Shown in pieces: positions 1 through 24,426 of a stretch of DNA of 30,023 nucleotides. The stretch spans positions 1 to 30,023 of IMG/VR virus record IMGVR_UViG_2690316318_000018, one strand, 5' to 3'. Each line of letters begins with the position of its first letter. Position 1 is the first letter of the stretch. This DNA is from a virus (taxonomy: Duplodnaviria; Heunggongvirae; Uroviricota; Caudoviricetes). A program made the position numbers and the translations under genes. The notes under the pieces were generated by a model. That model searched no databases. It was not told the DNA's origin and saw only the letters and a list, made by a program, of their open reading frames with translations.

Positions 1-603
1 ATGGATAACGCCATATTAAATAGCGAGATTATCGCCACCAAAGCAGGGAATATTACAGTGTATAACTATGATAGTGAAACCCGGGAATATATTTCCACTT
101 CAAATGAATATCTTGCTGTTGGCGTCGGTATCCCTGCATATTCCTGTTTAGATGCCCCTGGCACACATAAGGCGGGTTATGCTATCTGCCGTTCGATAGA
201 TTTAAACTCATGGGAATATGTGCCGGACCATCGCGGTGAAATTGTCTATAACACCGAAACGGGAGATGCCAAAGAAATCACAGCACCGGGCGACTATCCC
301 GAAAATACAACCACTATCGCCCCGTTAACGCCATACGATGAATGGGATGGTAAGAAATGGGTGACGGATACCGAGGCACAGCATAGCGCCGCAGTAGACG
401 CGGCAGAAGCACAGCGCCAGTCACTGATTGATGCAGCAATGGCTTCCATCAGTCTGATTCAACTGAAATTGCAGGCCGGACGTAAACTGACGCAGGCAGA
501 AACAACCAGACTTAACGCTGTGCTGGATTACATTGACGCGGTGACGGCAACAGATACCAGCACCGCGCCGGATGTCATCTGGCCTGAACTGCCGGAGGCG
601 TAG
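1..603 (+). CDS. Tail fibre assembly protein (Tfa/gpG family), copy G1', convergent with the gene at 575..1027
   Basis: 200-aa ORF. About 95% identical over its first ~153 residues to the minus-strand ORF at 2391..2924, then carries a full C-terminal segment (…DVIWPELPEA) of the kind shared by Tfa chaperones. Starts exactly at the window edge. Confidence 0.8.
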   Translation: MDNAILNSEIIATKAGNITVYNYDSETREYISTSNEYLAVGVGIPAYSCLDAPGTHKAGYAICRSIDLNSWEYVPDHRGEIVYNTETGDAKEITAPGDYPENTTTIAPLTPYDEWDGKKWVTDTEAQHSAAVDAAEAQRQSLIDAAMASISLIQLKLQAGRKLTQAETTRLNAVLDYIDAVTATDTSTAPDVIWPELPEA

Positions 604-1027
604 GCCATTCAATATCTGGTGCACCGGAAGTATCGATCAGCTCCAGTGCGTCCAGATAATCCAGCCACAAATTATATTGCGCCAGTTCATCACCTTTCAG
701 ACGACCAATAGCGGCTTTGCCGGGCCATTGCTTACTGTTCATGTATTCGTTGGCCTGGTTAATTAGTAGCTGTCTTTCTGATTCAGTAATTTCAATAAGT
801 TCTTCATGCGTGGGTGGAGGAATATCTGCCCACGCAGGCAGCCCATCACCTCCGGCAATACGGATTTTTCCTTGTGGCGGTTCAGCCATAAATTCACTGA
901 TAATATTTTGATTCACCTCTTTAGCATCTGATAAATCCCATCCCTCTGATTTATATTTATCAATCATATCCACAGGGAAAAAAGCATTATGCCTTGCGCT
1001 ATAAACATATTCGTTCATATAAATCAC
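575..1027 (-). CDS. Tail fibre assembly protein (Tfa family), alternative copy G2
   Basis: 150-aa ORF directly downstream of the alternative tail-fibre C-terminal domain. C-terminal segment (…LWLDYLDALELIDTSGAPDIEWPTPP) parallels that of the 1..603 product. Overlaps 1..603 tail-to-tail by 29 nt. Confidence 0.75.
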   Translation of the reverse strand: MIYMNEYVYSARHNAFFPVDMIDKYKSEGWDLSDAKEVNQNIISEFMAEPPQGKIRIAGGDGLPAWADIPPPTHEELIEITESERQLLINQANEYMNSKQWPGKAAIGRLKGDELAQYNLWLDYLDALELIDTSGAPDIEWPTPPAVQAR

Positions 1028-1038
1028 CCTTAATAAAA

Positions 1039-2427
1039 TTACTCACCAACAGCCCACCAACTGTAATTCATCGATACTGTGGAACTGGTTGATGCAGTTC
1101 TGTAAGCGGAATTAAAACCGGTTAATGTTGGACCTTCTGCGGTCATCACGAATCCCCGTCCAGCACCTAAAGGTGCACCACCATCACCAGAATGGGTAAG
1201 CATGGCGCAGTCCACTTTTTTAGGAAAAGGGATGCTGAATGTAATTCTCATTGTTTGCGTCGATAATGTCGGCGTAATCGCACCACGACCATATTGCAGG
1301 ATTTTCCCGTTGGGTAATTTCATCCATCCATCACCACTGGCAAAAGAAGCCATATCCGGTATCTGATTTTCCCCTGTTCCCACATCCCGTTTTGCCGCTT
1401 CTCCCAAACCAAGGTAATCAAGAACTCCCTGAGTGCTGGTTTTACCAAGAATGGCACGTCCAACACTTGTCAACGCGGTTAACGCGGCACGATCTGCCCC
1501 TGTAAAATATGGGAGTTTATCTGCTGATGTAGCAAGCTCCGCCAGCGCCGTCAGGGTGGCATCCTTCGGTTGCTTACCCGCAAGCGCGTTAGTCATGGTG
1601 GTCGCAAAATTCGGGTCATTGCCCAGCGCCGCAGCCAGTTCGTTCAGCGTGTTCAGTGCATCAGGTGACGAATCTACAAGTGCGGCAATCGCGGCCATAA
1701 CGAAAGCCGTGCTTGCGATCTGGGTACTATTAGTCCCCTGTGGCGCTGTTGGTGTTGTTGGCGTTCCGGTCAGTGCCGGGCTGTTTAATGGTGCTTTCTT
1801 GTTCGTTTCATCCATTACCGCCTTAACAGCTTTTGGTGTCGCTGCCAGCGTTTCAGACGTGCTGTTCGTGGCGCTACTGAGCTGAACAATCCCTTTTTGT
1901 GTAGTGGTGGCGTTCTGGGCGGTATATTTCCCGTTAGCCAGGTCATATGCAGCCTTAACCGCTTTCGGTGTTGCGGCCAGTGTTTCTGATTCACTGTTAA
2001 TTGCACTGCTTAACTGAGTAAAACCTTTTACGGTCAGCGAGGCGTCCGGGTGACGTCGTGATTGTTCGTGCTCTGATATTTTATCATCCACATATTTGCG
2101 GGTTGCCAGAACCACAGACGGGTCGATTTTCAGCGTGATGGCTTCGGTGTTCGTGACAACCAGAATCATGCGGATAGTCTGTGTGCGTCCACTGCCTTCC
2201 TGCAACTGCGGTTTGTACGTTTCCGGGCAGTTTGCCACCGCAATGAGTACACCTTCATCATCATAAAGACCAATCTCACGGATCCAGAATCCTCCCTCGT
2301 TTTCAGGGATGATTTGCTCCGCAATAATCTGGCTCTGATTGTTAGGGTCAACACTCAGAAGATTCAGCGGTGCAATGCGTTTCTGGTTAATCAGTTTTGT
2401 TTGTGCAGGGTCTGGTGTTGGTAACAC
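1039..2427 (-). CDS. Tail fibre protein, N-terminally truncated duplicate of H with an alternative C-terminal (receptor-binding) domain
   Basis: 462-aa ORF. Its first ~343 residues are identical to residues ~38-380 of the 541-aa H product. After the shared …VLDYLGLGE it continues with a different ~120-residue C-terminus. The track start is GTG at 2427, which is a Val codon in full-length H; independent translation is uncertain. Confidence 0.6.
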   Translation of the reverse strand: MLPTPDPAQTKLINQKRIAPLNLLSVDPNNQSQIIAEQIIPENEGGFWIREIGLYDDEGVLIAVANCPETYKPQLQEGSGRTQTIRMILVVTNTEAITLKIDPSVVLATRKYVDDKISEHEQSRRHPDASLTVKGFTQLSSAINSESETLAATPKAVKAAYDLANGKYTAQNATTTQKGIVQLSSATNSTSETLAATPKAVKAVMDETNKKAPLNSPALTGTPTTPTAPQGTNSTQIASTAFVMAAIAALVDSSPDALNTLNELAAALGNDPNFATTMTNALAGKQPKDATLTALAELATSADKLPYFTGADRAALTALTSVGRAILGKTSTQGVLDYLGLGEAAKRDVGTGENQIPDMASFASGDGWMKLPNGKILQYGRGAITPTLSTQTMRITFSIPFPKKVDCAMLTHSGDGGAPLGAGRGFVMTAEGPTLTGFNSAYRTASTSSTVSMNYSWWAVGE

Positions 2428-2433
2428 ACCATT
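1398..2433. repeat. Direct repeat copy A (1036 bp) of the tail-fibre H constant region
   Basis: Identical by eye to 3403..4438 at an offset of 2005 bp. The embedded antisense ORFs 1433..1885, 1815..2006 and 2166..2354 have translations identical to 3438..3890, 3820..4011 and 4171..4359. Boundaries read directly from mismatches at 1397/3402 and 2434/4439. Confidence 0.85.
1399..1424. other. Putative Hin/Gin/Cin-family serine-invertase crossover site (26 bp, imperfect dyad around a central AA)
   Basis: Plus-strand sequence TTCTCCCAAACC-AA-GGTAATCAAGAA. The half-sites are an imperfect inverted repeat and closely resemble hix/gix/cix sites as I recall them (e.g. hixL TTCTTGAAAACCAAGGTTTTTGATAA). 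It lies exactly at the constant/variable junction of the tail-fibre reading frame, where it encodes VLDYLGLGE. Confidence 0.6.
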
Positions 2434-2924
2434 ATCAACTTCCGTCCGGCCTGCAATTTCAGTTGAATCAGACTAATGGAAGCCATTGCAGTATCAATCA
2501 GTGACTGACGTTGTGCTTCTGCCGCGTCTACTGCGGCGCTATGCTGTGCCTCGGTATCCGTCACCCATTTCTCACCATCCCATTTATCGTATGGCGTTAA
2601 CGGGGCGATAGTGGTTGTTTTTTCGGGGTAATCACCCGGAGTTGTGATTTCTTTGGCGTCTCCCGTTTCGGTGTTATAGACGATTTCACCGCGATGGTCT
2701 GGCACATATTCCCATGAGTTTAAATCCATCGAACGGCAGATAGCATAACCCGCCTTATGTGTGCCAGGGGCATCTAAACAGGAATATGCAGGGATACCGA
2801 CGCCAACAGCAAGATATTCATTTGAAGTGGAAATATATTCTCGAGTTTCACCATCATAGTTATAGACGGTAATATTCCCTGCTTTGGTGGCGATAATCTC
2901 GCTATTTAATATGGCGTTATCCAT
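2391..2924 (-). CDS. G: Tail fibre assembly protein (Tfa/gpG family), copy G1, C-terminus replaced at a duplication junction
   Basis: 177-aa ORF immediately downstream of H. About 95% identical to the 1..603 product through …QLKLQAGRK, then reads 19 unrelated residues (LIMVCYQHQTLHKQN…) into the duplicated H segment; the nucleotide junction is at ~2434-2442. Confidence 0.7.
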   Translation of the reverse strand: MDNAILNSEIIATKAGNITVYNYDGETREYISTSNEYLAVGVGIPAYSCLDAPGTHKAGYAICRSMDLNSWEYVPDHRGEIVYNTETGDAKEITTPGDYPEKTTTIAPLTPYDKWDGEKWVTDTEAQHSAAVDAAEAQRQSLIDTAMASISLIQLKLQAGRKLIMVCYQHQTLHKQN

Positions 2925-4549
2925 TATGCAGCCCTCACAATATAGTTAAATGCAATATTCCTTGGTCGAACCCTAAAACCAGCCCCTGCGCCTGCTCCAG
3001 TTGGTGGCAATTCGATAGAGGGGTATGCTGTTGCAGGGGAATATAAACCTTCACGGGAATCATAATCAGTCGTCATATAGTTAGACGTATTATCAGAAAC
3101 AGTTTCTGTCGGTCTGGTAACCAGACGATAAGAGCCAGTGGTTGGTGACCTGACCAGACCAAAACTTTCAACCAGAGTAGCTTTTTGAAAGCTTAATAAT
3201 CCCCGACCACTGTCAGCTCCGCGCCCATCATCCCAGCCACGAATAAACTCACCGCGTAAATCAGGCAGTTTATTTGTCGGATAAGCCTTTGCCAGTTTAG
3301 GATATTCAACGGCAGAAAATGCCGCACCGTTGCATTTCAGCCAGCCTGTTGGCGGAGTGGCGGAAGGCCACGGAACAGGCACACCCGCGGGTAATGCCGA
3401 ACCTTCTCCCAAACCAAGGTAATCAAGAACTCCCTGAGTGCTGGTTTTACCAAGAATGGCACGTCCAACACTTGTCAACGCGGTTAACGCGGCACGATCT
3501 GCCCCTGTAAAATATGGGAGTTTATCTGCTGATGTAGCAAGCTCCGCCAGCGCCGTCAGGGTGGCATCCTTCGGTTGCTTACCCGCAAGCGCGTTAGTCA
3601 TGGTGGTCGCAAAATTCGGGTCATTGCCCAGCGCCGCAGCCAGTTCGTTCAGCGTGTTCAGTGCATCAGGTGACGAATCTACAAGTGCGGCAATCGCGGC
3701 CATAACGAAAGCCGTGCTTGCGATCTGGGTACTATTAGTCCCCTGTGGCGCTGTTGGTGTTGTTGGCGTTCCGGTCAGTGCCGGGCTGTTTAATGGTGCT
3801 TTCTTGTTCGTTTCATCCATTACCGCCTTAACAGCTTTTGGTGTCGCTGCCAGCGTTTCAGACGTGCTGTTCGTGGCGCTACTGAGCTGAACAATCCCTT
3901 TTTGTGTAGTGGTGGCGTTCTGGGCGGTATATTTCCCGTTAGCCAGGTCATATGCAGCCTTAACCGCTTTCGGTGTTGCGGCCAGTGTTTCTGATTCACT
4001 GTTAATTGCACTGCTTAACTGAGTAAAACCTTTTACGGTCAGCGAGGCGTCCGGGTGACGTCGTGATTGTTCGTGCTCTGATATTTTATCATCCACATAT
4101 TTGCGGGTTGCCAGAACCACAGACGGGTCGATTTTCAGCGTGATGGCTTCGGTGTTCGTGACAACCAGAATCATGCGGATAGTCTGTGTGCGTCCACTGC
4201 CTTCCTGCAACTGCGGTTTGTACGTTTCCGGGCAGTTTGCCACCGCAATGAGTACACCTTCATCATCATAAAGACCAATCTCACGGATCCAGAATCCTCC
4301 CTCGTTTTCAGGGATGATTTGCTCCGCAATAATCTGGCTCTGATTGTTAGGGTCAACACTCAGAAGATTCAGCGGTGCAATGCGTTTCTGGTTAATCAGT
4401 TTTGTTTGTGCAGGGTCTGGTGTTGGTAACACACCATTTGCATCACCAACGGCCATTTGCGTCAGATTCAGCTTACTGCCGAGCATCGTCGCGTTAGCCA
4501 GTCGTGCTGCGCCCTGATTAGTCAGAATGGCGTAGTATTTCACTGTCAT
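2924..4549 (-). CDS. H: Tail fibre protein H (full length, C-terminal variant 1)
   Basis: 541-aa ORF at the P2 gene H position, downstream of I. Thr/Ala/Ser-rich central region with repeated …TQLSSA.NSESETLAATPKAVKA… motifs typical of myovirus tail fibres. Confidence 0.85.
   Translation of the reverse strand: MTVKYYAILTNQGAARLANATMLGSKLNLTQMAVGDANGVLPTPDPAQTKLINQKRIAPLNLLSVDPNNQSQIIAEQIIPENEGGFWIREIGLYDDEGVLIAVANCPETYKPQLQEGSGRTQTIRMILVVTNTEAITLKIDPSVVLATRKYVDDKISEHEQSRRHPDASLTVKGFTQLSSAINSESETLAATPKAVKAAYDLANGKYTAQNATTTQKGIVQLSSATNSTSETLAATPKAVKAVMDETNKKAPLNSPALTGTPTTPTAPQGTNSTQIASTAFVMAAIAALVDSSPDALNTLNELAAALGNDPNFATTMTNALAGKQPKDATLTALAELATSADKLPYFTGADRAALTALTSVGRAILGKTSTQGVLDYLGLGEGSALPAGVPVPWPSATPPTGWLKCNGAAFSAVEYPKLAKAYPTNKLPDLRGEFIRGWDDGRGADSGRGLLSFQKATLVESFGLVRSPTTGSYRLVTRPTETVSDNTSNYMTTDYDSREGLYSPATAYPSIELPPTGAGAGAGFRVRPRNIAFNYIVRAA
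3403..4438. repeat. Direct repeat copy B (1036 bp) of the tail-fibre H constant region
   Basis: See copy A; same orientation, offset 2005 bp. Confidence 0.85.
3404..3429. other. Putative Hin/Gin/Cin-family crossover site, second identical copy in direct orientation
   Basis: Same 26-bp sequence as 1399..1424, at the constant/variable junction of full-length H. Confidence 0.6.
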
Positions 4550-5187
4550 GCGTTTACTCTCAGGTTATCAATTAAATGAATGGCCGGGGCCGGGAAATAA
4601 TCCCCTTCGACAACAATGGACTCCGGGGTGTAGGGATAAACCGTCAGGGCGTCGCCGTAATAGCATCCCGTACCAACGAAAATCTTTCCGTTCACACTCA
4701 GACTGATCGCCAGCCCTGTCAGATGGCGACTTACTGGTTTTGCATCCGCAATAAGGCGCTCAAGTTCCTGATACATTTCATCGGTGATGCCCTGATCAAG
4801 TACTCCGACAACAATGCGAAATGTTCCAGGCTCCTCATTGAGTTGCCACCACTCCTTTACTTCAATCAGGTAGCCGAGAGGCTCCACGGCTCTTCGCAGT
4901 GCGCTGATGGTCCCTTTGTGTCGGTGTATCAGCCATGCATCACGAATCACCTGTCGCTTTGTCTCTTCCGGCCAGTTGCGATCCCAGCGGTCAACGGAAA
5001 ATGCCCAGGCGAGATAAGGCAGCAGATGCACCGGGCAGGTGTCCGGCGACCACAGCGTGTTGAGGTTTACCGGAATGTCTGTAATGCGCGTTCCGACAGC
5101 TTCGGCACAATGCATGAAATTGCTGGCTGATGGCGGTAACAGTGAATTACTCATTACGCCCACCTTCGCTGATGGTGAATGACTCAC
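4546..5187 (-). CDS. I: Baseplate assembly protein I
   Basis: 213-aa ORF between J and H, overlapping both by 4 nt (coupled); position and size fit P2 gpI. Confidence 0.8.
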   Translation of the reverse strand: MSHSPSAKVGVMSNSLLPPSASNFMHCAEAVGTRITDIPVNLNTLWSPDTCPVHLLPYLAWAFSVDRWDRNWPEETKRQVIRDAWLIHRHKGTISALRRAVEPLGYLIEVKEWWQLNEEPGTFRIVVGVLDQGITDEMYQELERLIADAKPVSRHLTGLAISLSVNGKIFVGTGCYYGDALTVYPYTPESIVVEGDYFPAPAIHLIDNLRVNA

Positions 5188-16544: not shown

Positions 16545-18749
16545 TTACGTGTCGAGAGAAATTTGTGTGCGCAGTTGAATAGGATTCAGAATTGTATATC
16601 GCTGGCGAATAACATTATATAAATCAAAGTCTTTTACCCTTACGCTTATTACCATCGCATATTGCATATCAGGGGCTGAAACTCCCTTAACATGGCGCGA
16701 AGAATCTCGGGCATGATACCGTATATCAAAAACTGGATCGCTTAATAATGTATCAGCACTGAACTTTTTGCTTCTGTGCAAACAAGTTTCCCACTTATGA
16801 CCTTCACTCCTACACTCCCTTTCAGTCTTATACTGGCTTTTTTGACCAAAGAAATCATCTGTATCGGTATCGTCAAGGCCGAATCTTGGGCGGAAAGTTA
16901 CCTGCATACCGGCCCTTGTATAGTTTACTGAATGTTCAGGATCTACTGGGGTTTGAATGCATAAAGTAGCGGTAAGCTCAAATGCTTCGTCAAAGGGAAC
17001 ATCAGGGAATGGGATCGGTGCCCTTAAATATTTATTTTTTGCTAATGAACCATAGTAAATTACTGTAGCAGTATCATTTGGACAATCGATTAAAACGTTA
17101 GGATCCTCACTAAACCGTCCCCAACCGATATGTTCACGCGAATATTTTCTTGATGTTTCAGCATGATGAACAAGCAACGCTTTCAATGCAATGGTGTTCA
17201 ATGGAGTTCCTGATAGAGCCGCAACTCCAGCGGCCGTTCTCAATGCTAATGGAGAGGCATAACTGGTTCCTTGAACTCCAACTATAGAACCAAGCAGAGG
17301 GTTGTAAGTGTAAAAAGGCTCGTCGTCGCTTCCACCAAAAATAACACCATCAGGTTTAACGAATCCGGGGCTTCTGCCTGGCCCAATACAGCTATATGGT
17401 GCCCGCCCCCATTTTTCACCGCTACGATCAGCAGCACCAATCGCTAGCGCGTTTACCATATCGGAAGGAGGTTGTATTCTCGCTGCATCACCGTCCTCAT
17501 TGCCATCATTCCCAACAGCAACAGTAAGTAATATCCCATGCTTAGCACAGATTTGGTCTAAAACAGCAGTCCATACATGAACCTCATCATCACCAATTGG
17601 AAGATGAGGACCAATACTTAGATTAGCGAACTTATAGTCACCACTATCAAGAACGGACTGTATTTTCTTAAGGACATCAAATAAATCCCAATTGCCATTG
17701 TCACCTGATGTCGGTGAAAGAACTCTATAATGATCTACATTCATAAACGGTCTTTTAAAAGAAGGTGCATTTTCCTCGACACGTCCGAATAAGAAAGTGG
17801 ATGTCACTTCATTACCGTGCTGCAATAATAATCCGCTTGTTTCTTTGGTGTCTGGATACACGTATTCCGTAACCCAATTACTCAAGTCAGCTGTCCCCAA
17901 GCCACCATCAAAAATGGCAATACGTTCGGATTCAAGAACAGCTTTAGAATTAGGGAGCTCCGGTGTAACTATATTAGATAACTTTCTGACAATGTTCGGC
18001 TGAGTACACCTGAGAGACGGCATCGGCCGCACAACGCGGATTAATGAAAAATCGAGTGTTTTTTTCATATCTTCAGGTCGCGCGTGTGCAACGATGAAAG
18101 TCAGCCCACCAACTTGGATTCTACTTTTGTAATCAACAGAGACATCATATTGTGCCGCATAGCTAATATAGGCTTTAACGATATCATCGTCTTCAACCCC
18201 AGCATGAAGAACCACTTCAAATTTTATCAAATCACTTTTCGCATGCTCAAAATTGCGTGCTCTCTCTTTTCCTTCAAAAAAGCTAACACTTTCAATTTCG
18301 ATCAAATCCTTTTGTACGCCCTTCGGAGCTGTAGGGGAATTTAAAATTTCCTTAAATCTTATAACGGCATCATCATCACCGCTAACAAACAGTTGCGCCG
18401 TTACTAAGTCCTTATTCTGATCGCACTGACGTGCCGCTTTCCGTGGGCGAATGATTACCTGACGGCTGCCGACATCCCGTAAACCTGTCGCTCTAAGCAA
18501 TCCTTCCGGAAAGTAGCTTTTACCCAAAAACGCTGGGTGTAAAGTTAAATTGAATACACTCTCCCCCCTTGGCTTAGCCGCATCATCCAAACTGCGAAAG
18601 CGTGAGAGTAAAGTATCAATCTCTGGGTTTAAATGCTCCCTTACTTCTTCAAGAGTATAGGGATAGCGCTTACCATCCCTTCCTTTAGGCAAAGGTTCCT
18701 TTTTTGTCAGAACATGACCGTTACCTAAAAGTAAGTTCCTTTCCATCAT
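16545..18749 (-). CDS. Subtilisin-like serine protease (peptidase S8 family) with ~270-aa N-terminal and ~230-aa C-terminal domains of unknown function
   Basis: 734-aa ORF. S8 catalytic motifs in canonical D-H-N-S order: …RIAIFDGGLG… (Asp ~281), …LLQHGNEVTS… (His ~311), …VAVGNDGNE… (oxyanion Asn ~414), …GVQGTSYASP… (Ser ~496). Start overlaps the upstream ATPase stop (ATGA). AT-rich codon usage. Confidence 0.85.
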   Translation of the reverse strand: MMERNLLLGNGHVLTKKEPLPKGRDGKRYPYTLEEVREHLNPEIDTLLSRFRSLDDAAKPRGESVFNLTLHPAFLGKSYFPEGLLRATGLRDVGSRQVIIRPRKAARQCDQNKDLVTAQLFVSGDDDAVIRFKEILNSPTAPKGVQKDLIEIESVSFFEGKERARNFEHAKSDLIKFEVVLHAGVEDDDIVKAYISYAAQYDVSVDYKSRIQVGGLTFIVAHARPEDMKKTLDFSLIRVVRPMPSLRCTQPNIVRKLSNIVTPELPNSKAVLESERIAIFDGGLGTADLSNWVTEYVYPDTKETSGLLLQHGNEVTSTFLFGRVEENAPSFKRPFMNVDHYRVLSPTSGDNGNWDLFDVLKKIQSVLDSGDYKFANLSIGPHLPIGDDEVHVWTAVLDQICAKHGILLTVAVGNDGNEDGDAARIQPPSDMVNALAIGAADRSGEKWGRAPYSCIGPGRSPGFVKPDGVIFGGSDDEPFYTYNPLLGSIVGVQGTSYASPLALRTAAGVAALSGTPLNTIALKALLVHHAETSRKYSREHIGWGRFSEDPNVLIDCPNDTATVIYYGSLAKNKYLRAPIPFPDVPFDEAFELTATLCIQTPVDPEHSVNYTRAGMQVTFRPRFGLDDTDTDDFFGQKSQYKTERECRSEGHKWETCLHRSKKFSADTLLSDPVFDIRYHARDSSRHVKGVSAPDMQYAMVISVRVKDFDLYNVIRQRYTILNPIQLRTQISLDT

Positions 18750-19828
18750 TTAATCCCCCACTTTTGTAATTTATTCGCGATTGTTGGATGTGAAACACCA
18801 ACTAATTCAGCTATCTTCCTATTTGAAAAACCGTCAAAATGATATTTAATTATATTGAGATCATTATCGCTAAACTCATCCAATGAAACCCTCTCCGTAA
18901 TTACGGCTTCTATTAATGAGCTTTCAAATGGAATATTTCTAAGTACCTCATTCTTTTTGGAGAAATTCAAAATACGGTTAATGATGGCAAAGGACATGCC
19001 ATCTAATAATGGTGCAAGTTTTTTAGATAGTTCAGGTTCAATATTATGATTGACTAAATATCTATCTATCAGTTCTACTGATGGCATATTAAATTTAAGG
19101 ATGTGCTCAAATCGACGCCAAACAGCCGGATCTAAGATATCAGGGTGATTAGTCGCAGCAACAAGAAGCGAGGTCGCTGGCCACTCATCTATGGTCTGTA
19201 GGAGTACAGTAACTAAACGTTTTAATTCTCCAACGTCCCTGTCATCATCACGTCTTTTTGCAACAGCATCAAATTCATCAAGCAAAAGGACACATGGTTT
19301 CTCTTTGGCATAATCCATAACGGATTTAATATTATTACCTGTTTTTCCCAAAAGAGAACTCATTACAGATGAGAGATCCAATGTTAAAAGAGGTAAATTT
19401 AACTTTGCAGCAAGCCAATGTGCGGACATTGTTTTGCCTACGCCTGGCGGGCCAGAAAGTAAAACCGTCTTCACAGGTTCAAGACCAGCTTTGAACAAAG
19501 AAACCGCATTCTCTCTTTCGTTAACAATTGACTCCAGCTTCTTTGAGATATCCGTATTCCATACAGGTTCTTCAACAATTGCGTTGACAGATGTTTCCTG
19601 CAAAAGGTTTCGTCTGGAGTCTCCATCCACAGGCATAGGAGCCTTACTAGATGCCCCACGTAATACTGTTCCCTCAGCAACTAACGAAGCCAGCTTAGAA
19701 GCTAAAGCCTCATCATTTTTACGGATGTTGTTAATCATCTTTCTGCATAGGAGTGTAAATGCATTTGCGTTGCCTTTGATGCCTTGCTCGATGAGTTTGA
19801 AAAGTTCATCCTCCCTCACGTTTACCAT
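18746..19828 (-). CDS. Classic-clade AAA ATPase with predicted C-terminal helix-turn-helix
   Basis: 360-aa ORF. Walker A LSGPPGVGKT (~126-133), Walker B VLLLDEFD (~180-187), second region of homology …LLVAATNHPDILDPAVWRRFEH… (sensor-1 Asn, Arg fingers). C-terminal segment …SNRKIAELVGVSHPTIANKLQKWG… resembles a LuxR / sigma-70 region-4 type HTH. Confidence 0.85.
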   Translation of the reverse strand: MVNVREDELFKLIEQGIKGNANAFTLLCRKMINNIRKNDEALASKLASLVAEGTVLRGASSKAPMPVDGDSRRNLLQETSVNAIVEEPVWNTDISKKLESIVNERENAVSLFKAGLEPVKTVLLSGPPGVGKTMSAHWLAAKLNLPLLTLDLSSVMSSLLGKTGNNIKSVMDYAKEKPCVLLLDEFDAVAKRRDDDRDVGELKRLVTVLLQTIDEWPATSLLVAATNHPDILDPAVWRRFEHILKFNMPSVELIDRYLVNHNIEPELSKKLAPLLDGMSFAIINRILNFSKKNEVLRNIPFESSLIEAVITERVSLDEFSDNDLNIIKYHFDGFSNRKIAELVGVSHPTIANKLQKWGIK

Positions 19829-20522: not shown

Positions 20523-21482
20523 TTACTCCTTGTCCATTGCGTACAGCCCATTAACCAGAGCAAACTGTGGCACCCCGTCCGCGATGAAAGTCGCATTAAC
20601 TCCGCAGGCTTCGCGGATAGCGGGTGCCACAATCTCCGCCCCTCCACCGACAACCATCACCCGCCCGTAACCCGAAAAAACCGCCAGCGCGCGGATCACG
20701 CGTTGTTTCAGTGTTTCCTCCTTTTCACGAATAACCGCCATCAGGCTGTCGTAATGCGCGTCATTGTGGATGTGCTGGCGCAGCCAGGCTTCATCATAGC
20801 GATGTTCGATAATGGTATTGGCGATGTGGTGACTGGTGCGCATACCGTTAGTGGCCATCACCGACAGCACGGCATCGGCCATCAGAGAAACGCCTACGTG
20901 TGGATCGCAAAACACCTGGCTGATACCTGCCAGTTGCCCCTGAACCTTTGCCACATCCAGCGTGGTTCCGCCCAAATCCACAATCAGCAGGGATTCAAAC
21001 GGACTCATGTCAGCCAGTGCTTTAAAGCCAGCCGGAATGGATTCAGGCATAACCCGCACGTTACGGATAGTGAATGCTTCGCCGTTCTGGTACTCCACCG
21101 GGCGCATAACGTTCGCTTTTTTGCGGTTGATGTTGGCCATGTCCGGCTGTGCGTTTGTGTCGAAATACTCGCTCAGTGGCAGGGTGACAACCACATCCAC
21201 CTCCTGTGGTGTGATGCCTGATTTGACCAGCGCGTGATGAATGGCAATGACATTCACATCGCTGTATTGGTATTGCGTGTCGGTCGTCTGGACAAAGCGA
21301 TCGCTGACCGGATCAAAACCATAGCGCACGCCATCAAGCATGTAGTTCGCGGGCTGCGTGCCACCGAACGGCGCAGACCATTCCGACTTGAAGCTGTTCG
21401 GGCTGATGGCGTTGCGGCGTTCGCCGTTCTCAGTCCATGCCAGCTTGATGTTGGTGGAGCCGTCGTCGATACAAATTTTCAT
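20523..21482 (-). CDS. parM: ParM/StbA-like actin-family partition ATPase
   Basis: 319-aa ORF. N-terminus MKICIDDGSTNIKLAW…ISPNSFK…YQYSDVNVIAIHHAL…VMPESIPAG…LIVDLGGTTLD… closely parallels plasmid R1 ParM (…FIDDGSTNIKLQW…ISPNSFK…WQYSDVNVVAVHHAL…VMPESIPAG…) as recalled from memory. Confidence 0.85.
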   Translation of the reverse strand: MKICIDDGSTNIKLAWTENGERRNAISPNSFKSEWSAPFGGTQPANYMLDGVRYGFDPVSDRFVQTTDTQYQYSDVNVIAIHHALVKSGITPQEVDVVVTLPLSEYFDTNAQPDMANINRKKANVMRPVEYQNGEAFTIRNVRVMPESIPAGFKALADMSPFESLLIVDLGGTTLDVAKVQGQLAGISQVFCDPHVGVSLMADAVLSVMATNGMRTSHHIANTIIEHRYDEAWLRQHIHNDAHYDSLMAVIREKEETLKQRVIRALAVFSGYGRVMVVGGGAEIVAPAIREACGVNATFIADGVPQFALVNGLYAMDKE

Positions 21483-21513: not shown

Positions 21514-21625
21514 TTTACGGGATTCTGAAATCCCGTTTTTGCCTGTTTTCTGCGCGCTTCATATATCGCTGCGCGTTTTTTGCTCATTTACGGGATTCGT
21601 GAGTCCCGTTTCTGTCTGTTTTTTG
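21514..21625. repeat. Two near-identical ~35-bp hairpin-plus-T-tract modules flanking the gene A stop, upstream of parM (parC-like or terminator candidates)
   Basis: TTTACGGGATTCTGAAATCCCGTTTTTGCCTGTTTT at 21514..21549 and TTTACGGGATTCGTGAGTCCCGTTTCTGTCTGTTTTTTG at 21588..21625. Each contains a 6-7 bp palindrome ACGGGA(T)…(A)TCCCGT. Confidence 0.5.
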
Positions 21626-24426
21626 TTTCCACTGGTCAGGCCACCCCGCAGCAGGTCTGCTTTGCGGCGGGCGCGTTCAGTGGTTTCACTGATTCTCTGT
21701 GCGTGCTCTGCGTCGCGGATGGCGCGCAGCATGTCAGAAAGCACGGTAACGGGTGTTTTCATGGTGTTCTGGTCCTGCTGAAGTGTGGATGCCAGGCGTG
21801 CGGCGGCTTCAGGGTCTGATGCCCCCAGCTGTGTCAGATAGCTGGCGACCGGGTTATGGCGGATCTCCGTGCTGCTTACGCCATGATTACGGCTCAGGCG
21901 CTGCCAGAGCTGCGTGATTCGGCTGTCCGGGCGGGTATCCGGTTTGCGTACAATTTCAAATCCCTGCGGTGCAATGATGCTGCCGTCAACGTACAGACTG
22001 CCGCCCCGTAACAGGTGCTGCATCTGTTGTTCACCGATATGCAGGCCGAGAGATTCAGCAGACTCCCGCCATTCTTTAGCGAGTAATTCGTGGTTATCAG
22101 GCAAAGGCCGCTGCTGTTTGCGGCTCTGTGTCCAGCTCTGCATTTCATCACTGCTGTTTTTTGCCTGTTTGTCACGAAGCGAACGCATCAGCGCCCGGCG
22201 TTCGTGCCGTTTCAGTGAGCGCATCCATTCATCCACATCAACGCCGTCAGGGAGCTGCGGCCACGGTGCTGGCCGTTCTTCCGGCTGTTCTGTCCCGTTG
22301 TTGTCCGTTTCCTGTACACGGGGACAGTTATTGCCACGAGTCCAAGGGGCGGCAGGGCCGCCCTGAAGGTCAAAACCATTTTCGCGGGCGCTGTCTTCCG
22401 CTTCCGGTTTACGTCTTACCAGCTTCCAGTTATCCGGATGTGTGCACACACGGGAAGACTCCCCGATGAGTGGTGACCAGATCCCGTAAATCTGTACGCT
22501 CTGTTCGCCGTAATCGTTCAGCTCATCTGCGAGGTCGTAGGCGGTGCGAATCAGGTAGTCTTTGCGTGGAACAAGTACGCCGCCCTGTTTTTCAATGTAG
22601 GAGGCAAAACACCCGGCATCAGCGGCAGCGAGCACTGCATCCATTGCGTCATCCTTCAGTCGTTGCGGGCCTTCCGGGTTGCGTGCCATCTGGCTGGCAA
22701 GGCGGCGCAGTTCACGCCACACCTGACGGGAGGGGATGCCAAAGAACTGGAACTGGCGGACCCGGTGAAGGCGCGCCCAGCCGATGGCGCGCTCCACGCT
22801 CTCGGCCATTGATTTTCCGGTTTCGTGGTCAACGCGTGGCTTGCCCGTTTTCGGGTCGATACCATCCACGGCGCGGCTGTCCAGGTTCTTTCCGATGTAG
22901 GTGGCGATGTAGCTGGTTGGCGTGCCTTTTGAGCCGTCGACATACTCCGCCTTAAAGCGCGGAGTAATATCATTGCCCAGCTCGTGGCGGTCTTCCTGAA
23001 TGGCAATATCGCGGGTGATGGCCACGATGCTGTCGATTTCTTCCGGATGAGCAAAGACCATCATATGCCAGTGCACAGTGCCGTCATGGTGAGGCTCCAC
23101 CGTGCGGATGCCATACCAGCGCAGGCCGTCGCGGTTCAGTTTCTTGCGGACCGCCGCAAAAAACGTGTTAACCAGGTAATCGCTGGAGTCGCGCATGGTG
23201 GCCCCGTTCCATTTGGGGTTCGGATGACCGTTCTCTGTTGTGGCGTGGTATTTTGACGGGCAGGTGACAGTCAGAAACACCGCTCTGTCGCCACGGGCTT
23301 CGGCCAGAAGTTCCAGTCCCTTCATGGTGGCCATCATTTCTGCCTTACGGTGAACCGGGTTACTTACTCCCGCGTAATACACTGTCTCGAGATCAATCGT
23401 GAACCCGTCTTCATTTTCCAGCATGAAACTTTTCAGGAAATCGCGTGTTTTCTCGCGCTGTGCGCGAAACTCGCTTAACGCGTCCTGGCTCAGATAGGGT
23501 GATGTTTTTCTGGAAACCAGACAGGCGGCGCGGAGTTGTTCTTCTCTCCACTCGCAACGTAACAGCCACAGTTTGCGTTTCCACCATTCCGCACAGGTCA
23601 GGCGAAGGATTGCGCCCGGCAGCAGCTCCGTGTCCGGTTCGTTCCTCCGGTCTTTGTCTGTTGTCAGTGCGTCATAATGTGGAGGCATGGCGTGCAGGTG
23701 TAACGCCATGCGGGCCAGCATCTGATACGCCTTCAGCGTTACATCCATGGTCAGTTCGCCATCAGTCGCGCCAAAGCCATCGCAGAGTTTTTCGAAGGTG
23801 CTGCTGAACATCGCCGCCGTCATGGTGGCCAGCGTCTGTATCTGGTGTTTGTTGAGCTGCGGCAGGTAAAGCAAATCGTCCAGGCGTTCGCGTCCGGCAA
23901 GGGAGCGATAACCCGGTGTCAGCCAGCGGTGGTCGGTGCGGTCCAGACGTTCGAATATTTTGCGCAGGGTTCCGCGCGCGTAGCGTTCCGCCTGCCAGCT
24001 CTTTTTGCCTTTCTGACGATCGGCTTCCTGCTTCTTGCGCAGGAAAGAGAGGTGGCGGCTCAGAGGTTCTCGCAGATAAACGGGAAGCGCCTTCAGTGTG
24101 GCAAAGGCACGGGCTACCGGGTCTTGTTCTGTTGCCCGGCGCTTACTGATGATGCTCTGTGCCAGCTTTTCACGCTGTCCGGCTTCCTCAAGGGATGCCA
24201 TGAGTTTTTTACCCATGGCGGATTGTGCGAAAAAGGCTTCTTCCTTCGCTTCCTGTTCTTTCTGTGCCCTTTTGTCCGCCTCAAGGTAGTAACGGATGGC
24301 GCGTTGCAGGTCGGTTTCAGTTTCCTGCCTGTGCTCCGTAAATCTGGCTGGATCAATGGCTGGCCGTGGTTCATTCCAGCTCCATGCAAACTCACTCATG
24401 GCTGGTATCCCGTCACGCGCTGCCAC
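21559..24426 (-). CDS. A: Replication initiation protein A (rolling-circle replication endonuclease)
   Basis: 955-aa ORF at the P2 gene A position, the largest early gene, after the small early ORFs and before the accessory interval. Longer than P2 gpA as I recall it. Confidence 0.75.
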   Translation of the reverse strand: MAARDGIPAMSEFAWSWNEPRPAIDPARFTEHRQETETDLQRAIRYYLEADKRAQKEQEAKEEAFFAQSAMGKKLMASLEEAGQREKLAQSIISKRRATEQDPVARAFATLKALPVYLREPLSRHLSFLRKKQEADRQKGKKSWQAERYARGTLRKIFERLDRTDHRWLTPGYRSLAGRERLDDLLYLPQLNKHQIQTLATMTAAMFSSTFEKLCDGFGATDGELTMDVTLKAYQMLARMALHLHAMPPHYDALTTDKDRRNEPDTELLPGAILRLTCAEWWKRKLWLLRCEWREEQLRAACLVSRKTSPYLSQDALSEFRAQREKTRDFLKSFMLENEDGFTIDLETVYYAGVSNPVHRKAEMMATMKGLELLAEARGDRAVFLTVTCPSKYHATTENGHPNPKWNGATMRDSSDYLVNTFFAAVRKKLNRDGLRWYGIRTVEPHHDGTVHWHMMVFAHPEEIDSIVAITRDIAIQEDRHELGNDITPRFKAEYVDGSKGTPTSYIATYIGKNLDSRAVDGIDPKTGKPRVDHETGKSMAESVERAIGWARLHRVRQFQFFGIPSRQVWRELRRLASQMARNPEGPQRLKDDAMDAVLAAADAGCFASYIEKQGGVLVPRKDYLIRTAYDLADELNDYGEQSVQIYGIWSPLIGESSRVCTHPDNWKLVRRKPEAEDSARENGFDLQGGPAAPWTRGNNCPRVQETDNNGTEQPEERPAPWPQLPDGVDVDEWMRSLKRHERRALMRSLRDKQAKNSSDEMQSWTQSRKQQRPLPDNHELLAKEWRESAESLGLHIGEQQMQHLLRGGSLYVDGSIIAPQGFEIVRKPDTRPDSRITQLWQRLSRNHGVSSTEIRHNPVASYLTQLGASDPEAAARLASTLQQDQNTMKTPVTVLSDMLRAIRDAEHAQRISETTERARRKADLLRGGLTSGNKKQTETGLTNPVNEQKTRSDI

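What the first reader, a model, noticed from the sequence alone, without database searches (positions are those of the whole stretch)
1..1100. Convergent tail-fibre assembly genes at the window edge imply a multi-cassette tail-fibre diversification locus extending beyond the window
Seen in sequence: tfa G2 (575..1027, minus) and tfa G1' (1..603, plus) are arranged tail-to-tail and overlap by 29 nt, the same layout as U and U' in the middle of the Mu G segment. G1' is a ~95%-identical paralogue of G1 (2391..2924), not an exact copy. Inference: a third receptor-binding cassette that G1' serves, in plus orientation, should lie immediately upstream of position 1 together with the recombinase, giving at least three alternative fibre tips.
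Basis: inference. Interest (0 to 1): 0.5.

Follow-up and report, generated by a model that had tools for sequence, protein, structure and literature searches.

The report
Invertible tail-fibre switch of P2-like prophage
The two head-on tail-fibre chaperone genes at the window edge are the middle of a well-known flip-flop DNA switch that lets a P2-like prophage swap its receptor-binding fibre tip; this is ordinary, apart from an extra 2-kb partial copy of the fibre gene seen only in this one draft assembly.

Summary
G1' (1-603, +) and G2 (575-1027, -) are true Caudo_TAP tail-fibre assembly genes. They converge and overlap by 29 nt, and G1' is 94.5% identical over 490 nt to the truncated G1 (2435-2924).

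The locus is the centre of a Gin/Pin-type invertible tail-fibre segment of a P2-like prophage. The source is Escherichia albertii contig CYCK01000006.1, which ends only 55 bp left of window position 1.

Those 55 bp are identical to the end of tip1. A public contig (L007) is 100% identical to window 1-2433. Immediately upstream it carries a plus-strand Collar-type tip cassette, the inverted 26-bp crossover site and the start of a serine invertase.

The "third" cassette, however, is an exact copy of tip1, so there are two tip types, not three.

Three cassettes appear only because this contig has a 2,005-bp extra segment (fibre-gene codons 38-381 + tip1 + a truncated chaperone). That segment is absent from L007 and from all 5,426 complete E. 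coli genomes. It may be a real illegitimate recombinant or a draft-assembly error.

The convergent pair itself occurs in 708 complete E. coli genomes. Low interest; already known.

The parts
1..603 (+). tfa G1', a full-length tail-fibre assembly chaperone (200 aa). It lies in the silent (inverted) orientation and serves the tip1' cassette just left of the window.
   Evidence: ORF. Pfam Caudo_TAP E=2.2e-32, profile 1-131/131. The exact protein is found on 6 contigs, always beside a Collar-type tip cassette.
575..1027 (-). tfa G2, the chaperone for tip2 (probable start ATG at 1018, 147 aa). It converges on G1', and 575-603 is the 29-nt overlap of the two 3' ends.
   Evidence: Caudo_TAP E=1e-30. 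The 147-aa annotation and 29-nt overlap recur in L001, L003, L004, L007.
1039..1398 (-). tip2 cassette (variable C-terminal receptor-binding part, gp53-like_C domain), fused in frame to the truncated H' copy.
   Evidence: Pfam Gp53-like_C E=1.4e-11 at residues 370-461 of the 462-aa ORF. 100% identical to L007 and L008.
1399..1424 (+). 26-bp Gin/Pin-type crossover site TTCTCCCAAACC AA GGTAATCAAGAA inside H' (codons LDYLGLGE).
   Evidence: Exact copy of the site at 3404-3429. 2 matches in the window against 0.00 expected in shuffles. The same site occurs in H of relatives, with an inverted partner next to the invertase.
1398..2433 (-). Copy 2 of the 1,036-bp exact direct repeat. It is the constant part of a 5'-truncated fibre gene H' (starts at H codon 38, no start codon or N-terminal 37 residues of its own).
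   Evidence: 100% identity to 3403-4438. Pfam Phage_tail_fib matches only profile positions 42-150/150.
2434..2434 (.). Junction base (T) between truncated G1 and H'. It matches neither parent sequence.
   Evidence: tfaE homologues continue ...GTTGA|CGCAGG, and H reads ...GATGCA|AATGGTGTG.
2435..2924 (-). Truncated tfa G1 (nt 1-490 of 603). The ORF 2391-2924 ends in 14 out-of-frame codons and lacks the conserved C-terminal 37 residues.
   Evidence: 100% identical over 1-490 to tfaE of E. coli 2014C-3097, with 27 differences to G1'. Caudo_TAP profile 1-93/131 only.
2924..3403 (-). tip1 cassette (Collar-domain receptor-binding tip), at present fused to the full-length H gene.
   Evidence: Pfam Collar E=1.5e-14. 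Identical at all 493 nt to the silent upstream cassette of L007.
3404..3429 (+). 26-bp crossover site inside the full-length H gene, in direct orientation relative to 1399-1424.
2924..4549 (-). Full-length tail fibre gene H (541 aa: N-terminal domain, fibre repeats, tip1). 3403-4438 is copy 1 of the 1,036-bp repeat.
   Evidence: Pfam Phage_tail_fib 1-150/150, Phage_fiber_2, Collar. Repeat extent.

Best explanation
Positions 1-1100 are the centre of a Gin/Pin/Cin-type invertible tail-fibre segment of a P2-like prophage of Escherichia albertii. The constant part of fibre gene H ends at a 26-bp crossover site, at codons LDYLGLGE. Beyond it lie two alternative modules, each a variable tip followed by its own chaperone, placed tail to tail: tip2+G2 on the minus strand and tip1'+G1' on the plus strand. 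A serine invertase is encoded just beyond the segment, outside this contig. Together with the host protein Fis it recombines the site in H with an inverted partner site beside its own gene. That flips the segment, so the other tip and chaperone become fused to H and transcribed with it. The inversion mechanism is inferred from homology. The presence of both orientations among identical relatives is shown. This contig also carries a 2,005-bp extra segment. It places a complete H::tip1 gene and a C-terminally truncated chaperone (G1) in front of what is otherwise the canonical locus, leaving the original H::tip2 copy without its first 37 codons. As assembled, the expressed fibre would be H::tip1. 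Its dedicated chaperone lacks the conserved C-terminal domain, so it would be helped at best by G2. Recombination between the two 1,036-bp direct repeats would restore the canonical locus.
For: Domain content: Caudo_TAP in G1' and G2, and Phage_tail_fib + Phage_fiber_2 + Collar or Gp53-like_C in H and H'. Crossover sites: two exact copies in the window with none expected by chance. Relatives carry the same site in H and an inverted partner TTCTCCCAAACC AA CGTTTAAGAAAA beside the recombinase, with the same central AA. Source contig: it was identified and ends 55 bp left of position 1, and those 55 bp equal the end of tip1. L007: 100% identical to window 1-2433 and 4439-4600, and it has tip cassette, site and invertase start upstream. 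L008: 100% identical to window 1-1412, and it shows the same segment in the opposite orientation relative to the recombinase and gpU. The same contrast is seen between L001 and L003. Invertase: the relative's enzyme is 74% identical to Mu Gin and has Resolvase + HTH_7 domains. Frequency: the convergent tfa pair is present at 80% coverage or more in 708 of 5,426 complete E. coli genomes. Literature: inversion of P2-like prophage fibre loci in E. coli has been shown experimentally (PMC4272514). Chaperone architecture: the conserved C-terminal domain drives trimerisation and assembly (PMC9608196).
Against: The invertase and the inverted partner site of this particular genome were not seen, because the contig ends. 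No reads or expression data were available, so inversion in this strain is inferred. The 2,005-bp extra segment is a singleton. The junction 41-mer is absent from viral, GTDB-representative and JGI metagenome contigs. No complete E. coli genome spans it. The H' and H proteins occur on one contig only. That part of the description could therefore be an assembly error.
Confidence: 0.85

Rival explanations
1. One reading: a true multi-cassette (three or more tips) diversification locus. Here the minus-strand modules H::tip1-G1 and H'::tip2-G2 and a plus-strand third module are shuffled by one recombinase, giving three distinct receptor specificities.
For: Three physical cassettes are implied (tip1, tip2 and the upstream tip1'). 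Two direct crossover sites lie in the window and an inverted one is expected upstream. With three sites, successive inversions could fuse any of the three tips to full-length H. A three-repeat, four-variant P2-like prophage locus with three alternative C-termini is documented in EPEC E2348/69.
Against: In the 100%-identical relative the upstream cassette is identical to tip1 at all 493 nt, and the 55 bp readable in this genome are also identical. That leaves only two tip types. The second minus-strand module is a 5'-truncated gene copy and its neighbouring chaperone is truncated, which looks like a rearrangement scar rather than a designed cassette. The arrangement is unique to one draft contig.
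Confidence: 0.2
2. The 2,005-bp extra segment is a draft-assembly error. Repeats shared with a second P2-like prophage, or with the flipped state of the same segment, were threaded wrongly. On this view the true locus is simply the canonical two-cassette switch seen in L007.
For: Deleting 2,005 bp makes the window 100% identical to L007. The repeat copies are exactly identical over 1,036 bp, as expected if one graph node was used twice. The tip1-G1 part is a mosaic not seen in any complete E. coli genome: tip1 equals the L007 allele, G1 equals the 2014C-3097 allele, and the best whole match is 97.9%. Draft contigs routinely break or tangle at this locus. E. coli genomes often carry several related loci (median 2 places per genome).
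Against: The junction has no shared sequence and lies only 3 nt after the last G1/G1' difference, not at a graph branch point. By contrast the contig end lies exactly 111 nt from the first difference, which is typical of a k-mer branch. A de Bruijn assembler therefore needed real reads to join these sequences. There are no Ns at the junction.
Confidence: 0.35
3. The convergent tfa genes are a frozen relic. The segment no longer inverts and only the currently fused tip is used.
For: The invertase was not observed in this genome. The prophage carries a rearranged fibre region.
Against: Relatives identical in sequence across the segment occur in both orientations (L007 versus L008). All cassettes, both chaperones and the sites are intact and identical to those relatives. 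Related loci keep an intact recombinase.
Confidence: 0.05

Closest known systems
Invertible tail-fibre segments of E. coli P2-like prophages (e.g. EPEC E2348/69; the identical locus in assembly GCA_000188875.2, contig ADUS01000062.1)
   Same: Same gene order (I, H constant part, tip, tfa, inverted tfa, inverted tip, serine recombinase). Same 26-bp sites and same 29-nt overlap of the convergent tfa genes. L007 is 100% identical over 2,433 nt. Inversion was shown experimentally for such prophages.
   Different: This contig has an extra 2,005-bp segment (H codons 38-381 + tip1 + tfa nt 1-490) not found in those loci.
Phage Mu G segment (S/U, S'/U', gin)
   Same: Two alternative fibre C-termini, each with its own Tfa chaperone, arranged tail to tail. 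The crossover site lies inside the fibre gene and the adjacent serine invertase in relatives is 74% identical to Gin.
   Different: The host phage is P2-like, not Mu. The tfa genes overlap by 29 nt, whereas Mu U and U' are 28 bp apart. The tip domains are Collar and gp53-like.
e14 P segment (pinE, stfE/tfaE) and P1 C segment (cin)
   Same: Same Din-family logic. NCBI's pipeline names the G1-type gene tfaE in relatives. The 26-bp site resembles hix/gix/cix sites; that resemblance is from my own memory of the consensus and was not tested.
   Different: e14 is a defective lambdoid element and P1 is a plasmid prophage. Neither was compared by sequence here.
Multi-site inversion systems (EPEC three-repeat P2-like locus; p15B Min; R64 shufflon)
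   Same: If the extra segment is real, there would be three crossover sites served by one recombinase, and more than two isomers (for EPEC).
   Different: Here the extra site sits in a duplicated, 5'-truncated copy of the whole constant region, not in a compact extra cassette, and the third tip duplicates the first. p15B and R64 are recalled from memory and were not tested.

Membership tests
Din-type (Gin/Cin/Pin/Hin) invertible tail-fibre segment | Two alternative variable fibre C-termini, each followed by its own tail-fibre assembly gene, in opposite orientations | tested here: met
   tip2+G2 (minus strand) and G1' (plus strand) are in the window, and the last 55 bp of a plus-strand tip precede G1' in the source contig. 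The full cassette is present in the 100%-identical L007.
Din-type (Gin/Cin/Pin/Hin) invertible tail-fibre segment | 26-bp crossover sites in inverted orientation, one at the constant/variable junction inside the fibre gene, with identical central dinucleotide | tested here: inconclusive
   The site inside H is present, twice and in direct orientation. The inverted partner lies beyond the contig end. It is present with the same AA core in L001, L003, L004 and L007.
Din-type (Gin/Cin/Pin/Hin) invertible tail-fibre segment | Adjacent serine recombinase of the Gin/Pin family | tested here: inconclusive
   Not in the window or the contig. L007 shows its first 23 codons. L001 and L008 have a 199-aa Resolvase+HTH_7 protein 74% identical to Mu Gin. 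Attempts to reach the neighbouring contig of this assembly failed.
Din-type (Gin/Cin/Pin/Hin) invertible tail-fibre segment | Both orientations occur | tested here: met
   Met among relatives only. L007 (tip2 fused to H) and L008 (tip2 next to the recombinase) are both 100% identical to the window across the segment. L001 and L003 show the same contrast. Not testable within this strain without reads.
Caudo_TAP tail-fibre assembly proteins (Mu U / P2 G / lambda Tfa) | Pfam PF02413 match above the gathering score across the whole profile, including the conserved C-terminal region | tested here: met
   G1' scores 112 bits (profile 1-131) and G2 scores 107 bits (profile 3-130), against a cut-off of 22.1. 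The truncated G1 covers only 1-93/131.
Multi-inversion (shufflon-like) fibre locus | Three or more crossover sites giving three or more distinct C-termini | tested here: not met
   Three sites are implied, but the third tip is identical to tip1 in L007 and over the 55 bp readable here. Only two tip types exist. The extra site depends on a singleton segment.

The most novel reading that the evidence does not exclude
The 2,005-bp segment is real. It turns a two-state switch into a three-site, shufflon-like system: a full H::tip1 gene, a silent 5'-truncated H'::tip2 copy and an inverted tip1'-G1' module are permuted by one invertase. Nested inversions are needed to express tip2, and homologous deletion between the 1,036-bp repeats gives a second route back to the canonical locus. 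This would be a snapshot of how multi-cassette fibre loci arise, by illegitimate recombination between two loci in opposite inversion states.
Probability: 0.3. Interest if true: 0.4.

Novelty: already known. Interest (0 to 1): 0.15.

Why it matters
Tail-fibre inversion switches set the host range of temperate phages and of phage-derived particles. This one adds nothing new in kind: the same sequence is already public, and the arrangement is present in about one in eight complete E. coli genomes. There are two practical lessons. Draft contigs break at these switches, so the window edge here is an assembly edge. Extra 'cassettes' in short-read assemblies of such loci need read-level confirmation. 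If the 2-kb extra segment is real, it is a small, testable example of how an added crossover site and a silent gene copy can arise in a fibre locus.

Tried and rejected
1. I searched the G1/H' junction 41-mer in viral, GTDB-representative and JGI metagenome contigs and found no matches.

2. I looked for the junction or the duplication in 5,426 complete E. coli genomes and found none.

3. An exact look-up of the chimeric 177-aa G1 ORF returned 'not on record', even though the contig is in the collection. This is uninformative.

4. I tried to reach the neighbouring contig of the same assembly through the invertase, using a homologue search and then a look-up of P0018. It led only to other samples, GCA_040283805.1 and GCA_001283185.1, which show the canonical locus.

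5. I considered that mixed inversion states of a single canonical locus could explain the duplication. I rejected this because G1 and G1' differ at 27 of 490 positions.

6. I considered that the junction was a join of two contig ends by a scaffolder. This is not supported: the G1 side ends 3 nt after the last allele difference rather than a k-mer length beyond it, and there is no N. It cannot be excluded.

7. The promoter and terminator scan of 1-4700 gave nothing above background on the relevant strand.

8. I checked whether the junction resembles a crossover site. It does not.
Full report
OBSERVATION

The ORF list shows a 200-aa ORF at 1-603 (+) and a 150-aa ORF at 575-1027 (-). They share 575-603, a 29-nt tail-to-tail overlap. 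Both are bona fide tail-fibre assembly proteins, with Pfam Caudo_TAP E = 2e-32 and 1e-30 across the full profile.

The inverted repeat 1-490 / 2435-2924 has 27 differences in 490 nt, or 94.5% identity.
- 'G1' (2391-2924) is a truncated gene. Its tfa homology stops at nt 490, and the ORF then runs 14 codons out of frame into a duplicated fibre-gene sequence.
- Mu U and U' are convergent but 28 bp apart, not overlapping.

The 29-nt overlap is conserved in all relatives inspected, so the layout is not a chance arrangement.

ANATOMY OF THE LEFT 4.6 KB

Genes read along the minus strand in this order.
- I: 4546-5187.
- Full-length fibre gene H: 2924-4549, 541 aa. It contains the Phage_tail_fib N-terminal domain, fibre repeats and a Collar-type tip, tip1.
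- Truncated G1: 2435-2924.
- A single T at 2434.
- H', a 5'-truncated second copy of H: 1039-2433. It starts at codon 38 (Pfam profile positions 42-150 only) and carries a different, gp53-like tip, tip2.
- G2.
- G1', on the opposite strand.

A 1,036-bp exact direct repeat (1398-2433 = 3403-4438) covers the constant part of H. Its tip-side end is a 26-bp site, TTCTCCCAAACC AA GGTAATCAAGAA, at 1399-1424 and 3404-3429. This site encodes LDYLGLGE, and no such match is expected by chance.

WHERE THE WINDOW COMES FROM AND WHAT LIES UPSTREAM

An exact look-up of the H protein found the source: NCBI GCA_001286085.1, contig CYCK01000006.1 (203,629 bp), labelled Escherichia albertii. The contig ends 55 bp left of window position 1. 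Those 55 bp are 55/55 identical to the 3' end of tip1 (window 2925-2979, reverse complement). A plus-strand fibre tip therefore does end at the G1' start codon.

The exact G1' protein occurs on six contigs, and two of them are decisive.
- L007 (GCA_000188875.2) is 100% identical to window 1-2433 and then continues directly into window 4439-4600. It is the same locus without 2,005 bp.
- Upstream of G1', L007 has a 177-aa Collar cassette beginning ...NVGLGEGS, the site TTTTCTTAAACG TT GGTTTGGGAGAA in inverted orientation, and the first 23 codons of a serine recombinase (MLIGYVRVSTNDQNTELQRNALE) on the other strand.
- L008 is 100% identical to window 1-1412. It shows the same segment flipped, with tip2 next to a 199-aa Resolvase+HTH_7 recombinase followed by gpU.
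- That recombinase is 74% identical to Mu Gin.

E. coli CEC08123, O157:H7 493/89, 2014C-3097 and ZH177, and a sibling draft (CYGC01000080.1), show the same design in one or the other orientation. Each has crossover sites in inverted orientation sharing the AA core.

WHAT IT IS AND HOW IT WORKS

This is the classical Gin/Pin/Cin-type invertible tail-fibre segment, carried here by a P2-like prophage. The window holds P2-type baseplate, lysis, head, terminase, gpA and integrase genes.

The invertase recombines the site inside H with the inverted partner beside its own gene. The segment flips, and the other tip+chaperone module becomes fused to the constant part of H and is co-transcribed with it.
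- Shown here: the parts, the sites, and both orientations among sequence-identical relatives.
- Inferred from homology and literature: catalysis by the invertase with Fis, and the resulting switch in host range.
- Inversion of P2-like prophage fibre loci in E. coli has been demonstrated by sequencing and PCR. One EPEC locus has three repeats, four isomers and three alternative C-termini (PMC4272514).

The convergent tfa pair is common. 708 of 5,426 complete E. coli genomes carry it at 80% coverage or more.

The prediction of a plus-strand cassette starting at the half-site, together with a recombinase, is borne out by the 55 bp of the source contig and by the identical relative.

The claim of at least three alternative tips is not borne out. 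From the site to the G1 start codon, L007's upstream cassette matches window tip1 at all 493 positions. The third cassette is a second copy of tip1, leaving two tip types (Collar-type and gp53-like).

THE 2,005-BP EXTRA SEGMENT

Three physical cassettes exist only because this contig contains an added block relative to L007. The block consists of:
- an exact copy of H codons 38-381;
- an exact copy of the tip1' cassette plus the first 56 nt of tfa;
- tfa nt 57-490 of a different allele, 100% identical to tfaE of E. coli 2014C-3097 and 4.6% different from G1';
- one T.

The junction has no microhomology. It is unique on every test.
- No complete E. coli genome spans it.
- The junction 41-mer is absent from three contig collections.
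- The H' and H proteins occur on one contig among about 15 billion proteins.
- The tip1+G1 mosaic is not seen as such in complete E. coli genomes; the best match is 97.9%.

Two readings remain.

(a) A real illegitimate recombinant between two P2-like fibre loci in opposite inversion states.
- The junction is not at a k-mer branch point. It lies 3 nt after the last allele difference.
- The contig end, by contrast, lies exactly 111 nt from the first G1/G1' difference. A MEGAHIT k141 contig ends 141 nt from the same point. Both are typical of de Bruijn branch ends.
- The junction therefore probably rests on real reads.

(b) A mis-threaded draft assembly.
- The repeat copies are exactly identical.
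- The tip1+G1 mosaic occurs in no complete E. coli genome.
- Removing 2,005 bp gives a known sequence.
- Drafts notoriously break at this locus.

I put (a) at roughly 0.6 and (b) at 0.35-0.4. Only reads can decide.

If the segment is real, several consequences follow.
- The expressed fibre would be H::tip1.
- Its chaperone lacks the conserved C-terminal domain that drives trimerisation and assembly in Tfa proteins (PMC9608196).
- H'::tip2 lacks its N-terminal 37 residues and any start signal, so it is a silent copy.
- Three sites, two direct and one inverted, would allow nested inversions.
- The 1,036-bp repeats would allow RecA-dependent reversion to the canonical locus. These last two points are inference.

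COMPARISON, NOVELTY, VERDICT

The locus is a member of the known family of Din-type invertible fibre segments. Its closest relatives are identical or near-identical public E. coli and E. albertii prophage loci. It works like the Mu G segment.

The feature the finding describes is already known and common. The only unusual element is the singleton 2-kb partial duplication, whose reality is unproven.

Interest is low (0.15).

Noticed in passing
window 1398-4438: A 2,005-bp extra segment relative to the otherwise 100%-identical public locus L007. It produces an exact 1,036-bp direct repeat (1398-2433 = 3403-4438), a truncated tfa (2435-2924) and a 5'-truncated second fibre gene. It is unique to this draft contig, and may be real or an assembly error.
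   Followed up: yes
window 16545-19828 (-): An IetA (AAA ATPase, 18746-19828; PADLOC E=4e-89) and IetS (S8 subtilase, 16545-18749; E=7e-41) anti-phage defence pair. It sits between the portal gene and replication gene A, which is the usual cargo position of P2-like phages.
   Followed up: partly
window 20523-21482 (-): A ParM/StbA actin-like segregation ATPase (Pfam E=2e-82) inside the prophage. It lies next to a long (955-aa) gpA replication protein at 21559-24426. Its role in an integrated P2-like prophage is unclear.
   Followed up: no
L001 1-5434; L006 1-6088; L008 1934-8057; L015 3519-6820: In this prophage lineage the sheath-tube-E-T-U tail operon lies on the strand opposite to V-W-J-I-H and converges on the invertase gene. 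In P2 itself and in the L003/L004 type, the operon follows the invertase in the same direction.
   Followed up: no
L007-L012 and L010 1-55 (source contig end): Draft contigs carrying the exact G1' protein nearly all end inside this locus. The E. albertii contig ends 111 nt, and a MEGAHIT k141 contig 141 nt, from the first G1/G1' allele difference. The contig ends are therefore k-mer branch points, and the window edge is an assembly edge.
   Followed up: partly
L006 7690-9111: E. coli ZH177, the closest complete-genome match to the structural genes (98.4%), has its H gene annotated as a partial pseudogene. About 600 bp are unannotated between that pseudogene and the gp53-like tip.
   Followed up: no
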